Source: Eledone cirrhosa (Eukaryota). From it: a stretch of 64,000 bases of DNA. How positions within the stretch are numbered: position 1 is the stretch's first letter; every line of letters begins with the position of its first letter. The stretch spans positions 51,460,001-51,524,000 of the forward strand of contig OZ024747.1 of NCBI GenBank assembly GCA_964016885.1, written 5' to 3'. Shown piece after piece: positions 23,435 through 64,000 of this stretch. Under the pieces are notes generated by a model. It did not search any database, was not told the origin of the DNA, and worked only from the letters and a program-made list of their open reading frames with translations. Both the position numbers and the translations under genes were made by a program.

Positions 23435-23595
23435 TATATACATATACATTTGTACATATACATATATGTATATATATATATATATATATTTATATACATA
23501 TATATATATATATATATATATATATATATATATATATATATATATATATATATATATATATATATAAAAGGAAACTATGATTATAAAACCATATT

Positions 23596-23661
23596 TATTT
23601 TATTATACATATTTCAAGGGCAACCAAGACAAATTATGGTGCGCTTTCATCAGATAAAATA
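23596..23661 (-). ncRNA. Type I hammerhead ribozyme (inverted pLTR)
   Basis: Reverse complement of 25501-25566, with an intact core. Confidence 0.75.
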
Positions 23662-25500
23662 CAGATTTGTTTTATAAATAAATATTGACATACCCGGAAA
23701 AAGGACAACGTTAACGGTAGCAGATTCCTGGATAGTTGAGATAGTACATTTATTGAGGGTGATTGAGGTGATTTATGAGTGAGTATGCAAATGAGTGTCC
23801 GAAAGTTTGAAAAGATAACGGTTTATTTAAATTAAACTGTTCGAAGAAGATGATATGTAAGGGAGAGAGAAAAAAAAAAGAAAAATAGAAAAAAGAAAGG
23901 AGAAAGATAGAAGAGGAAAGAAAGAACGATTATATATATTGATAGTGAAAATAGAGTGCATGAAGAGATGAGTTTCAAAGGGTAAATATACACAGCGTAT
24001 GTATATCTAAGTGAGGGAAGAAATGAGATTAACGTGGAAGAATAATATTTATAATGCAGGTTTCATTACGTTTTGATTATAATACTTATAATGATAGGTT
24101 GAAAAATTAGATTAAAATTAAATTAAAATAAAAAATTAGGAATCAAAATTAAAGATTAAAATTTACGCTAATATTAAAGATTTAATTTAATAATTTAATA
24201 TTAATAATTAGTTTAAATGTGTATGTTAAGGATTATAAGTTATTTAAATAAATATATAGTATTTTACATTAGGGCAAATCTAGTATAGTTTATTTTATTA
24301 AAAGTTGTAAGTCAAAATTTAAACATCCAAATAATTATAAAGTTATGAAAAATTTACGTGAGTTTACAAAGGAATAACCACTTAGTTATATTATAAAAAC
24401 AGTAAGGAAGTGTAAAGGAAGTTAGAAGTGATTTTTTAAGAACTCAGATGACTCTAAGGATTAAATGTTATAAATTAAAAAGTTAAAAATTTGTTATCTT
24501 AAGAATATAATTAAAACATGAACTATATGTTATTTTATACGAAGTCATAAATTTACTTGCTATAAATTTAAACTTTTAAAAAAAATTTGTTAAGAATATA
24601 TTTAAAGCATAAACCATAGGTTATTCCACATATATATAAAAAAACCTATATATAAAAATCATATGTTTTTCCACATATATATAAACATTTGGATATATAT
24701 ATATTAAACACGTTTGAAGATATAAAAATATAAAAATATTGGAAGGTATGAAAATAATGGTTTTTCTATATCTTTCAAAGGAATTTTCAAAAGATTTTTC
24801 TTAAAATCTTCCGTAAGTTTTTCAAGAAAACATTTTTCTTAAAGGAGTTTCAAGCAGTCATATAACACATTTTTATAATCTATCGATAGGTGTAATAATA
24901 TAAAGTATATAGTATATATATGTGAAGTAGAGATAATAACATACACATTTAAACTAATTATTAATATTAAATTATTAAATTAAATCTTTAATATTAAGGT
25001 AAATTTTAATCTTTAATTTTGATTTCTTGTTTTTAATTTTAATTTACTTTTAATCTAATTTTTCAACCTATCGTTGTAAGTATTATAATCAAACCGTAAT
25101 GAATCCTGCATTCTAAATATTATTCTTCCACGTTAATCTCATTTCTTCTCTCACTTAGATATACTTACGCTGTGTATATTTATCCTTTGAAACTCATCTC
25201 TTCATGCACTCTATTTTCACTATCAATATATATAATCGTTCTTTCTTTCCTCTTCTATCTTTCTCCTTTCTTTTTTCTTTTTTTCTTTTTTTTTCTCTCT
25301 CCCTTACATATCATCTTCTTCCAACAGTTTAATTTAAATAAACCGTTATCTTTTCAAACTTTAGGACACTCATTTGCATACTCACTCATAATTTTGTATC
25401 ACCCTAAATAAATGTAGTATCTCCACTATCCAGGAAGCTCCAACCGTTAAGGTTGTCTTTTTTTCCAGGTATGTCAATATTTATATATAAAACAAATCTG

Positions 25501-25566
25501 TATTTTATCTGATGAAAGCGCACCATAATTTGCCTTGGTTGCCCTTGAAATATGTATAATAAAATA
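25501..25566 (+). ncRNA. Type I hammerhead ribozyme (PLE pLTR)
   Basis: TATTTTAT-CTGATGA-stem II(AAGCGCACCA..TGGTTGCCCTT)-GAAA-TATGTA-TA-ATAAAATA. Confidence 0.8.
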
Positions 25567-26502
25567 AATATGGTTTTATAAATATAGTTTCCATTTATTA
25601 ATATATTGTGTATTTACTCCACTAACTTTCAGTTATAAAAATGTTTCAGCTTGTTGAATCCCAACAAGTGAAATATAACCTCTGCATATATATATATATA
25701 TATATATATATATATATATATATATACATAAAGATATATATATATATATATATATATATATATATACATAAAGATATATATATATATATATATATATACA
25801 TAAAGATATATGTATATATATAAATATATTTAATGTATAATAAACAACACAGTATAATTACCTCATTACCCGAGGTATCCCGAATAGGTCGAACACAAGA
25901 GACGTCAGATGAAGCAATATAACATAGTGAGATATTTGAAAAAAGCTCACCAAGAGAGGCTAAAATGTTTAACGGACAAAAAATATAAATAAAAGTAATA
26001 AGACAAAAAATATATGAAATAAAAATAAAGAAATATAGTGAGATGATGTGTGTATATGTACATACATATGCACATGTGTGTATATGTACATACACATGTA
26101 CATATGTACATGTGTGTATATGTACAACTGCATGTGTCTAGTGAAAATATGTATGCGTAAGTACATGCATGAGGACAAATATAAATTTTATATATATATA
26201 TATATATATATATATATATATATATATATATATATATATATATACATATATATATATATAGATAGATATATTCATATATATATATAAACATATATACATA
26301 TATACATATATATATATATACACATATATATATATATACACATATATACTTATATACATATATATATATATATATATATATATATATATATATATATATA
26401 TATATATATATACATATACATATATATATATGCATATATATACATATATATATATATATATATATATATATATATATATATATATATATATATATATATA
26501 TA

Positions 26503-26655
26503 TAATAATAAATTTGAAGACTAAAATCCAAAGAGGGCTCGATAAGTATAAACATATCTCAAATATATAAGAACCGTAGAGCAAATATTTATTAACATAA
26601 CAGATTAAAGTTTAAGCAAAGAATCGCTGCTTTCACCCTTAACGGGATCAGAAGA
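26503..26655 (-). mobile_element. Short TA-flanked pLTR remnant; rearranged relative at 60773-60892
   Basis: Shares CAGATTAAAGTTTAAGCAAAGAATCGCTGCTTTCACCCTTAACGGGATC and GAAGACTAAAATCCAAAGAGGGCTCGATAAG blocks with 60773-60892. The minus strand has a partial hammerhead (CCCGTTAAGGG-TGAAA-GC..GC-TT). Confidence 0.5.
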
Positions 26656-61420: not shown

Positions 61421-62163
61421 AATATATAAATATATATATATATATATATATATATATATATATATATATATATATATATATATATATATATATATATATA
61501 TATATATATATATATATAGATATAGATATATAGATATAAATAAATATACACGGGTGTGTATGATTGTGTATAGAAGATTATATTAATAAAAGGAATTCCA
61601 ACTTTGTCTGATTTACTCGTTTTATTTACAATCCTTTAAAATTATAATGATATTATAATGAAATAGTATGGTAGAATATTAAATGTTAAATGTTAATTGA
61701 ACTTTCATGCTTTCGCAATCTTCAGGTTCATATTAAATGGTGACAGACAAGTTTTCAATTATATATATATATTGTGAAAGAATGAAGAGTAACATGGTTG
61801 GCTGTACAACAAGGGGCTTTATTTCAGGTATTGACAATTGTTTCATTGATCAGGTGAGTCTAAAGATCGCTAATCGTTAGTCGCCACGAAGCAGAGTACT
61901 CACAACTGGATTACCTATAACGATAACTTGTTACACCATATATATATATATATATATATATAAAAGGAGATCAATATCCCCACAGGTACTAAGTACCCCT
62001 GGAAATATATAGGGTGTCTATGATACAGTGGCTGTTCTATAGTATTAATCTGACATACCAGAACTATAAAATTGAGATAAGCGGAGCAAGTAAGATTCAA
62101 ACAATTTTTTTAAATAAATTAAAAAATATAATTTAAATATTTACCTATTCCATTTGCTTTTAC

Positions 62164-62405
62164 CGACGGTTTCACCTCACAGAAGATTGGCAACCCTAGG
62201 GATTTCCAATGGAAATGTAAAGATCTTCAGAAAGCATATTCCCTACCGAGGACAAAAGTCCCAGGAACGGCAAAATATATTGCCACCTGCCAGCTAACAC
62301 AGGATCGAATGAGGCTGTAAATTTGACCTGTGCATGAGCCAACATTTAGTAGAAGCGGAAGTAAACATAGACATGTTGTCTATCATGCCACTAAAAATAG
62401 CAGCT
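62164..62405 (-). pseudogene. Exon-like remnant resembling a pentraxin/LamG3 C-terminus, frameshifted
   Basis: Acceptor TTTTATTTAG|, then AIFSGMIDNMSMFTSA (resembling FxGxIDxxxxxxxAL). Stops and frameshifts follow. Donor G|GTAAAA. Confidence 0.3.
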
Positions 62406-62618
62406 AAATAAAACAACGGATTTGTTCTCTCTCTCTCTCTCTCTCTCTCTCTCTCTATATATATATATATATATATATATATATATATATATATATATAT
62501 ATATATATATATATACATATATATAGATATGTGTGTTTGTGTTTACTTATATATATATATATATATATATATATATATATATATATATATATATATATAT
62601 ATATATATATATATATAT

Positions 62619-62978
62619 GCAAAAGTTCTATTTAAAATTGTTGGGATACAACAAGTAAATATTTTATAACTGATATAAAGCACTCGACAAGTTTTTGGAG
62701 TAGATATACGATATTAAATAAATGGAAACTATATTTATAAAACCATATTTATTTCATTATACATATTTCAGGGATACCAAATTAAAATATGGTATGCCTT
62801 CATCAGACAAAATAATGGTTGCATCTAATAGGGTACGTCAAAATTATTTATAAAACTGTTTATATATTGTATTTTGTCTGATGAAGGCATACCATATTTT
62901 AATTTGGTATCCCTGAAATATGTATAATGAAATAAATATGGTTTTATAAATATAGTTTCCATTTATTTAATATCGTAT
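62619..62978 (-). mobile_element. Fold-back pLTR mini-element (family of element 2) with hammerheads (62750-62814 -, 62870-62934 +)
   Basis: Arms are 62706-62814 and 62870-62978. The tail is homologous to 39520-39610, and a solo tail copy lies at 60619-60697. Confidence 0.85.
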
Positions 62979-64000
62979 ATATATATATATATATATATAT
63001 ATATATATACATACGCGTGTAGGCCGCTCTATTGTTCGAAACACAAACACACACACGCAAAAACTGACACATAGGTTCACACACACGTACACAGTAACTT
63101 GCGGATGAGCGGTAACTGTCCATCACTACTTTGTATCTTAACTTTATTAGCCCCAAAGACATTGCTCGTACTAACTTGTATTAGATATTCTATTCCTTCG
63201 ATAGTTACCTACCAAAATTGAGATTGTTGACTTTTCTCTGTGTTTGATTATAGTAATCTTCCTGTCACACATTAGTATTAGATATTTAGTTATATTGTTC
63301 TGTGAAATGTCACGAAAGGTCTGCCCCTTGTTGTTGCGGAAGAATAGTACACTTTTAATAGATACGAAATTATGGTGACATCTAGTAGATAGCTGATGAG
63401 CAAGAACAGTGCAAGTGTCCGCATTTTCTAAGCTTTGTGTGTTCCTTATAAGTCTCCTAAGTGCGTATGTGTGTTCGAGAGGGGGTGGGGGGTATGCCGA
63501 ATTCAAGAAGGGGTGACCAAAGTAAGTAATGTACACAATACATAGCAGAATATAAATATTTAATATACAAATGGTTCTACAGGACTAGAACTATTTCATT
63601 CGAAGGAAATCATAAGGAAATCCCCGGATTTCCGATCTGCTGATGCTTTCATTCGAACGAAACAGTTCCAGTCCTGTAGAAGCCATTTCTATATTACACA
63701 TATATATAAATATATATATATATATATGTAATGTATATATATATATATATATATATATATATATATATATATATATATATAGATATATATATATGTAATG
63801 TATATATATATATGCATTTATATGTATATATACACATGTATATGCACATACACATACATACATACACACATACATACATACACACATGCACACGCACAAA
63901 CATATATATATATATATATATATATATATGTTTGTGTGTGTGTGTGTGTGTGTGTGTGTGTGTGTGTGTGTGTGTGTGTGTGTGTGTGTGTGTGTGTGTG

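What the first reader, a model, noticed from the sequence alone, without database searches (positions are those of the whole stretch)
23570..63690. Fold-back ribozyme elements: graded series of hairpin insertions with hammerheads on both strands
Seen: every PLE-related insertion has the same layout of (TA)n, inverted copy of the 3' pLTR, spacer, pLTR, extra tail, (TA)n. The spacer runs from about 3 kb with an ORF (36234, 43648) through about 700 bp (23570), 110 bp (60925), 55 bp (62619) and 30 bp (31279) down to 4 nt (48047). Known: 5' inverted pLTRs occur in Penelope. Inference: cDNA fold-back or self-priming is the routine integration route here. It yields non-coding MITE-like hairpins that place a ribozyme on whichever strand is transcribed while also masking it in dsRNA. 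Some may be independently mobilised non-autonomous families.
Basis: partly seen in the sequence, partly recalled or inferred. Interest (0 to 1): 0.8.

Follow-up and report, generated by a model that had tools for sequence, protein, structure and literature searches.

The report
Two-ended Penelope hairpin insertions
These hairpins are real, head-to-head stumps of Penelope-like jumping genes whose joints differ from copy to copy, and their shape suggests that both ends of the cut DNA are likely extended from two fixed start points on one capped RNA, rather than by the copy folding back on itself.

Summary
The seven listed hairpins exist, with the stated spacers. They are 3'-end stumps of several Penelope-like element (PLE) families (Hydra-type, one Neptune-type) inserted in (TA)n; the layout is published. 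Fold-back alone is not supported. In genome samples the tail-less arm starts at a fixed site (family A: -87 in 40/56) and often reaches further upstream than the tail arm (27/50), so it cannot be a copy of it. All 50 centre-anchored family C hairpins carry exactly one tail. Both arms share one haplotype (157/161 sites). Short copies stop at one base preceded by an untemplated G in three families, a likely cap mark. Best reading: both cut ends prime at the two start sites flanking the tail on one capped RNA, and the two cDNAs are end-joined. Joints are nearly all unique (49/50), so these are new events, not propagated MITEs. Complete hammerheads on both strands: 5 of 7; no evidence of function. 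The scan noted de novo PLE palindromes and RNA-start pile-ups before in other genomes.

The parts
23566..24936 (-). Family A-related element 23570: tail-less inverted arm; paired part 23566-24228, and the 708-nt spacer is antisense 3' UTR belonging to this arm; hammerhead core at 23653 (-)
   Evidence: (24819-24921 matches 37795-37900 on the opposite strand)
24937..25686 (+). Element 23570: tail-bearing arm, hammerhead core at 25509, tail about 25597-25686, then (TA)n
26867..28971 (+). Frameshifted Hydra-type PLE ORF (RWK, SDKT, YRDD, CxCX5C) with no inverted arm: an exception to the claimed layout
31281..31650 (+). Element 31279: arms 31281-31400 and 31431-31550, spacer 30, tail to 31650; hammerheads at 31386 (-) and 31445 (+)
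31724..31922 (-). Family C hairpin with tail; only the 3' half of a hammerhead on each strand
32709..32899 (-). Family C hairpin (paired core 52/52) with tail
34822..35032 (+). Family C hairpin; the tail-less arm reaches the hard stop plus an untemplated C (likely cap mark); tail to 35032
36231..36497 (-). Element 36234 (family A): tail-less inverted arm, outer end at position -87; hammerhead at 36332
36517..37792 (+). 5'-truncated, frameshifted Hydra-type RT-EN ORF of element 36234
39257..39610 (+). Family A direct arm: likely transcription start at 39334 (-276), hammerhead at 39422 (predicted cut after 39470), internal start at 39523 (-87), 87-nt tail to 39610
43646..47060 (-). Element 43648: tail 43646-43734, arm from 43735 with hammerhead at 43835 (-), 3' UTR, open 5'-truncated Hydra-type ORF 45089-46951, inverted arm 46953-47060 with hammerhead at 46960 (+)
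48048..48239 (-). Element 48047 (family E): tail 48048-48123, arms 48124-48179 and 48184-48239, 4-nt loop that is stem I sequence of the tail-less arm; complete hammerhead only on +
53747..54450 (.). Hairpin 53747-54181 (182/186, spacer 62) followed by a direct repeat of one arm; family not assigned
57140..57790 (+). Family G (Neptune-type) hairpin: arms 300/300, 4-nt loop, about 45-nt tail; no complete hammerhead called
60626..60695 (-). Tail-only family A-related insertion, no inverted arm
60924..61418 (+). Element 60925 (family F): arms 60924-61046 and 61157-61279, spacer 110 belonging to the tail arm, tail about 126-140 nt; core intact on + only
62619..62980 (-). Element 62619 (family A-related): tail 62619-62703, arms 62704-62814 and 62870-62980 (111/111); the 55-nt spacer belongs to the tail-less arm; hammerheads at 62806 (-) and 62878 (+)
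63512..63707 (-). Older family E-related hairpin (61/73), hammerhead cores degenerate

Best explanation
The hairpins are head-to-head stumps of Penelope-like elements with copy-specific joints, likely made anew at each insertion when both ends of a cut in (TA)n prime reverse transcription on the same capped element RNA, one at the end of the tail and one at a fixed site just before it. Each cDNA would run upstream until it stalls or reaches the cap, and the two 3' ends would be joined through short microhomology. The result has one tail, two fixed outer ends and a variable centre in which either arm can be the longer. Short hairpins would come from priming on a pLTR whose RNA begins at the transcription start (the upstream pLTR of the mRNA, or a short pLTR transcript); long ones with an ORF from the downstream pLTR. 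Ribozyme sequence on both strands would be a by-product. Shown: the layout, fixed outer ends, one-tail rule, arm asymmetry, shared haplotypes, hard stop with extra G. Inferred: two primings, a protein dimer, a capped template, end-joining.
For: Fixed outer end of the tail-less arm: family A -87 in 40/56, all within -82 to -94 by the class definition; C -77 in 20/26; E -64 to -77 in 18/18 listed; F -121 to -127 in 12 of the 14 listed; G -41 in 5. Tail-less arm reaches further upstream: A 27/50 against 11 (binomial p=0.014); C 5/25, E 5/18, F 5/13, G 3/6. Some copies have no arm overlap at all (L037, L039, L114). 50/50 family C hairpins picked by their centre have exactly one tail; the longer arm is the direct one in 15, the inverted one in 16, close in 19. 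Arms of one copy agree at 157/161 diagnostic sites (67/68 in the inverted-longer class) against 57.6% between copies. Hard stop: the longer arm ends at -264 to -279 in 29/50 family A copies. Base before the stop in solo copies next to (TA)n, G against C, hand counts of distinct loci: C 66/94, A 33/48, E 59/90. Read-through copies have T in 100/100 (C), C in 21/24 with 1 G (A), and C in the family E read-through copies printed. The extra base occurs on either arm (L284, L294, 34822 inverted; L274, L287 direct; L143 both). L186 is a copy that begins a few bases before this stop and runs through the tail into a long open ORF. In vitro a PLE protein cuts and extends both strands, starts at two sites that bound the tail and is predicted to be a dimer (PMC11167929). 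An extra G marks capped L1 5' ends (PMC11702581).
Against: All evidence is from fixed genomic products; no intermediate or RNA was seen. Shared haplotypes could also come from gene conversion between arms or from two RNAs of one source locus. Snap-back of one cDNA as part of the joining step cannot be excluded once two primings are granted. Deletion of palindrome centres after insertion may add to joint variety. Copying one RNA twice needs strand displacement, which is not shown. The G/C patterns excluded A and T at -1, so they do not give the capped fraction. A few copies break the rule (tails on both arms in L049 and L142; outer ends at -113 to -127 in 3 family A copies). PMC11167929 reports no difference in start-site use between strands in vitro, which does not by itself predict the strict one-tail rule. 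At least a quarter of family A copies show no inverted arm.
Confidence: 0.7

Rival explanations
1. cDNA fold-back or self-priming (first reader; close to the self-priming on an antisense template proposed in PMC3846280): one cDNA snaps back and copies itself, and endonuclease trimming removes the tail from one arm.
For: Near-perfect palindromic centres are common (family C 19/50 close; E 11/18). Arms share haplotypes. Joints show 1-7 nt overlap. The idea is in print, and Craig 2021 ascribes the tail to endonuclease resolution.
Against: The tail-less arm is the longer in 27/50 (A) and 16/50 (C), so neither arm is a subset of the other. Independent trimming would give no-tail or two-tail hairpins; 0/50 were seen. 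The extra G points to a sense, capped template and occurs on both arms.
Confidence: 0.12
2. Perfect palindromes form first (by either route) and later lose their centres by microhomology-mediated deletion, which creates the spacer series and the asymmetry.
For: Palindromes are unstable (established knowledge). Many joints have microhomology.
Against: Many joints have inserted bases or keep the extra G/C at the centre. One arm often ends exactly at the hard stop while the other is only the tail (L039, L066, L087). Young copies with identical arms are already asymmetric (62619, 48047).
Confidence: 0.08
3. Short hairpins are propagating non-autonomous families (MITE- or SINE-like) copied as whole hairpins.
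For: Very high copy numbers (36,387 family C tail matches and 10,755 hairpins). Some joints recur (AATTCTG|TCCAG in L141, L147 and 32709). A short copy keeps its putative internal promoter and tail, so its linear RNA could be remobilised.
Against: 49 distinct joints in 50 family A copies; 23/25 in C, 17/18 in E, 13/13 in F. The recurrent joint lies on different haplotypes. Short and long family A copies share haplotypes. Ends are asymmetric, not TIRs.
Confidence: 0.07
4. Assembly or chimeric-read artefacts.
For: Several arms are 100% identical (57140, 62619, 48047, 32709). Locus-level reads were not obtained.
Against: Family-specific fixed ends and the one-tail rule; arm identity down to 84%; raw reads from three other samples of another study show the tail-less end joined to (TA)n (5189, 6178 and 7877 reads at 39511) and opposite-strand joints, and cross a family C hairpin centre.
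Confidence: 0.03

Closest known systems
Insertion architecture of EN+ Penelope-like elements (inverted 5'-truncated copy, pLTR, optional tail; PMC8557442 Fig. 2 text, PMC3846280, PMC2377424)
   Same: Head-to-head inverted pLTR, tail on one end, AT-rich or (TA)n targets, partial tandems (L109, L221-L223), palindromes at the joint.
   Different: Tails of about 70-126 nt in the Hydra-type and F families against 30-40 nt in print (family G has 41-45). Tens of thousands of ORF-less hairpins. A one-tail rule and arm asymmetry counted here; I did not find these counts in the passages read.
Hydra clade of C-terminal EN+ PLEs (PMC8557442, section 11)
   Same: RW(K/R), DKT, CxCX5C linker, CxxC and CxH near the EN end, no CCHH inside GIY-YIG, (TA)n insertion, hammerheads in families A and E.
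   Different: Family A unit is about 4.2 kb (Craig: generally under 3 kb). Family C has a non-canonical core (TTGAGAA). No tree was built.
Poseidon PAc in vitro (PMC11167929)
   Same: Two RT start sites bounding the tail, both strands cut and extended, uncleaved RNA as template (1 of 140 family A arm ends lies at the predicted cut).
   Different: A different clade. The parts read do not derive the inverted arm from the two sites or test whether the two strands use different sites in one event.
L1 twin priming (as described in PMC11702581)
   Same: The second DNA end primes internally on the same RNA, and the cDNAs join by microhomology.
   Different: In L1 the internal site is variable and the arms as a rule do not overlap (recalled). 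Here it is fixed and close to the 3' end, so the arms overlap and form hairpins.
Animal non-LTR retrozymes (10.64898/2026.07.22.740005, first of five parts read)
   Same: Non-coding, PLE-derived, hammerhead-bearing short units.
   Different: Retrozymes are direct tandem arrays; these are single head-to-head insertions.

Membership tests
EN+ Penelope-like element | Single ORF with RT and C-terminal GIY-YIG endonuclease | tested here: met
   YRDD plus (V/I)Y...Y(V/F/I)G motifs in window ORFs and L109, L126, L175, L186, L222; judged from motifs, Pfam gave no real hit
EN+ Penelope-like element | pLTRs from partial tandem or inverted arrangement, with a tail | tested here: met
   L109 upstream pLTR with tail then ORF; L221-L223 4147-nt tandem; inverted arms
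EN+ Penelope-like element | Hammerhead motif in the pLTR | tested here: inconclusive
   Met for families A, E and 43648; variant core in C; none called in G; cleavage not testable
Hydra clade | RWK and DKT motifs | tested here: met
   IRWRA/MRWKA and SDKT in L109, L186 and 26876
Hydra clade | CxCX5C linker, no CCHH in GIY-YIG, CxxC and CxH near the end | tested here: met
   CNCRNKSNC / CDLC / CKH in family A; CNCRIKNKC / CNLC / CLH in 43648
Hydra clade | Insertion into (TA)n | tested here: met
   Flanks
Hydra clade | Placement in the clade on an RT tree | not tested
   No reference Hydra proteins were held; no tree built
Neptune clade (family G only) | CX2-5CxxC linker and two cysteines inside GIY-YIG, DKG-type motif | tested here: met
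   CTNRKCIIC, VYSIRCTKGTC...YIG and DKSG in L222; no tree, so Neptune against Nematis rests on motifs
MITE | Symmetric terminal inverted repeats and a homogeneous unit | tested here: not met
   One-sided tail in 50/50 and variable centres
MITE | Link to a DNA transposase | tested here: not met
   Long copies of families A, C, E and G lead into PLE ORFs; family F unlinked
Non-LTR retrozyme | Direct tandem units each with a hammerhead | tested here: not met
   Single head-to-head insertions; only occasional direct dimers (L100, L029/L030)
Non-LTR retrozyme | Circular RNA | not testable with these tools
   No RNA holder listed

The most novel reading that the evidence does not exclude
PLE integration is an obligately asymmetric two-ended reaction: a protein dimer primes one DNA end at each side of the tail on one capped RNA, including on the mRNA's own 5' pLTR, and so turns out tens of thousands of non-coding hairpins. 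In family C the transcription start lies inside the loop of a U3-A8 hammerhead, so the 5' end of the transcript carries only half a ribozyme and only read-through RNA can self-cleave.
Probability: 0.45. Interest if true: 0.72.

Novelty: new variant of a known kind. Interest (0 to 1): 0.55.

Why it matters
How Penelope-like elements make their inverted repeats and one-sided tail is named as an open question in PMC8557442 and was attributed to self-priming in PMC3846280. The copy numbers here turn it into counts that a test can meet or fail: exactly one tail, either arm longer, a shared haplotype and a cap-like G. They would link the two in vitro start sites of PMC11167929 to the genomic layout. 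In practice, over ten thousand such hairpins in one family could be filed as MITEs or SINEs by automatic annotation, and each is a possible source of double-stranded RNA. That last point was not tested.

Tried and rejected
Rfam scan: the 150 hits shown of 304 were repeat-driven miRNA-type and similar matches below gathering score; no hammerhead was among them, and the other 154 were not seen. Pfam on 5 ORFs: nothing real. The look-up of sequencing runs: no RNA holder listed, so expression, small RNA and A-to-I editing were not examined. Hammerhead cleavage as the source of the inner stop: rejected, 1 of 140 family A arm ends within -142 to -136 against 36 within -279 to -271. Tail structure: an ACTC...GAGT pairing is visible by eye in 5 tails, but of 8 tails folded only 2 reach z below -2, so no conserved fold is claimed. 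Collision of the two RTs near -87 as a cause of short direct arms: about 7/56, as expected from uniform truncation by my estimate; dropped. Family C first looked like a propagated family with a shared breakpoint (note 1); overturned that. The first genome search was biased to full-query matches and was not used for counts. [quoted passage not shown] Earlier-findings look-ups returned nothing.
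Full report
Setting. The window is G000:C7:51460001-51524000 of a 3.0-Gb assembly, rich in (TA)n. My guess at the host, a cephalopod, is from recall of such genomes and was not tested.

1. Observation. After masking simple repeats, self-BLAST and arm alignment show all seven listed elements with the stated spacers, each as (TA)n, tail-less arm, spacer, arm, tail, (TA)n. A hammerhead descriptor called 13 motifs (8 on +, 5 on -) against a mean of 0.13 in 30 shuffles. 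Both strands are complete in 5 of the 7. They have a short palindromic helix III, the dimer-type motif described for PLEs in PMC4209133 (passages read). 'Every' is too strong: five PLE-related pieces in the window lack an inverted arm.

2. What they are. The ORFs at 36517, 45089 and 26867 and natural long copies (L109, L126, L175, L186) carry RW(K/R), SDKT, YRDD, CxCX5C, CxxC and CxH, with no CCHH. These are the marks of the Hydra clade in PMC8557442 (section 11 read whole, other passages). Pfam gave nothing and no tree was built. Exact tail-pattern matches in the genome: family A (36234) 3,370; C 36,387; E (48047) 10,891; F (60925) 348; G (57140) 2,019. G has a Neptune-type ORF. F was not tied to an ORF in the 30 loci held. 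The series of spacers therefore mixes unrelated families.

3. Test of fold-back. A folded-back cDNA can only copy what it already holds, so the tail-less arm must be a subset of the tail arm. In the window this fails at 62619 (the spacer matches the pLTR in the orientation of the tail-less arm), 48047 and 23570 (antisense spacer). For family A I took 90 of the first 100 listed tail matches on C1 (30 with 1.5 kb flanks, 60 with 5 kb upstream). Classes: 50 with an adjacent tail-less arm, 6 with a distant one, 7 other inversions, 27 none detected. The outer end is -87 in 40/56. The tail-less arm reaches further upstream in 27, the tail arm in 11, equal in 12; 49 of 50 joints are distinct. Families C, E, F and G (33, 31, 31 and 26 copies) behave alike. 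To avoid anchoring on the tail I fetched the first 50 family C hairpins found by their centre (10,755 in the genome): 50 have exactly one tail, none has two or none, and the longer arm is direct in 15 and inverted in 16. Against: two tail-anchored copies have tails on both arms (L049, L142).

4. One template, with a defined 5' end. Arms of a copy agree at 157/161 calls at six substitution columns, against 57.6% between copies. With two indel columns near the arm end included the figure is 223/249; I dropped those two as alignment-edge artefacts. Gene conversion could contribute. Short and long copies share haplotypes. Short copies stop at one place: -276 in A, AGTCC in C, AGATTCC in E. Solo copies next to (TA)n have G rather than C before that base in 33/48, 66/94 and 59/90 distinct loci (hand counts; 55 of 55, 100 of 355 and 100 of 207 rows listed). 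Read-through copies have C or T there. An extra G marks capped 5' ends in L1 insertions (PMC11702581, passages), and Drosophila Penelope has an internal promoter in its pLTR (PMC2377424, passages). I read the stop as the transcription start; this is inferred. L186 begins a few bases before it and continues through the tail into an open ORF, so the upstream pLTR of the mRNA is a sufficient template. In none of about 14 family A copies with an arm beyond -280 did the other arm end within 4 nt of -276 (by eye), which suggests both primings use the same pLTR copy.

5. Mechanism. PMC11167929 (parts 1-2 of 4 read) shows that a PLE protein cuts and extends both strands, starts at two sites that bound the tail, uses uncleaved RNA and is predicted to dimerise. 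With the counts above this gives two-ended priming on one capped RNA followed by end-joining (confidence 0.7).

6. Ribozymes. Arm ends do not gather at the predicted cut (1/140). In family C the read-through copies show a hammerhead-like fold with core TTGAGAA in 6 of the 9 loci that hold it (CTGAGAA in 2, GTGAGAA in 1). I read this as a U3-A8 variant; that such variants can be active is recalled, not checked. The hard stop lies in its loop II, so the short hairpins hold only the 3' half. No RNA data were available, so neither activity nor masking is shown.

7. Artefact check. Raw RAD reads from three other samples of a different study show the tail-less end joined to (TA)n and opposite-strand joints at varied places for family A. 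They also show 20-116 reads per direction across the centre of a family C hairpin. This is family-level support, not proof for each locus.

8. Known and new. The layout is in print. The bioRxiv paper on retrozymes (part 1 of 5 read) concerns direct tandem arrays. The Octopus vulgaris repeat paper (passages) does not mention such hairpins in the passages found. Earlier notes of this scan on other genomes report de novo palindromes and pile-ups at the RNA start; they came after my own tests and are not independent support. New here, as far as my searches reach: the one-tail rule, the arm asymmetry, the cap-like G in three families, long tails, and a start site inside a variant ribozyme.

Noticed in passing
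window 26504-26655 and 60773-60892: Another abundant short (TA)n-flanked family (55-65 local BLAST hits among the loci held) whose two parts lie in opposite orientations at the two sites; probably a further PLE end with non-overlapping arms.
   Followed up: no
window 29211-29300 and 30451-30539: Short hammerhead units with a 10-11 bp stem II and no inverted arm; in L062 a relative occurs as an inverted pair.
   Followed up: partly
window 35301-36064: PLE-like 3' end with a well-formed hammerhead at 35722 (stems 8/7/5), ending at (TA)n.
   Followed up: no
window 53747-54790: Hairpin followed by a direct copy of one arm, a GCGGTAAGACA triplication and a second CTGATGA core near 54710; family not assigned.
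   Followed up: no
window 57436-57452; L222, L236: The family G hard stop lies at an A-run followed by ATGGCG, which resembles a YY1-type promoter motif (recalled); family G forms 4147-nt tandem arrays (L221-L223).
   Followed up: partly
tails at window 39524-39560, 34950-34985, 43700-43734, 48085-48123, 31553-31585: ACTC...GAGT pairing begins a few nt inside the tail in unrelated families; folding support is weak.
   Followed up: partly
window 16908-20511: 3.6-kb tandem array with a 35-nt period, about 92% identical.
   Followed up: no
window 40518-42477 (-) and 7-224: Fragments of a non-LTR element with an RVT zinc-binding-like motif (CPRC...H...C; label recalled).
   Followed up: no
window 50601-51024: Tandem array of 22-nt units, 97-99% identical.
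   Followed up: no
L220, L181, L180: Chimeric joins: the tail of one PLE family joined to the arm of another family or to a piece of its own tail, suggesting nested insertion or template switching.
   Followed up: no
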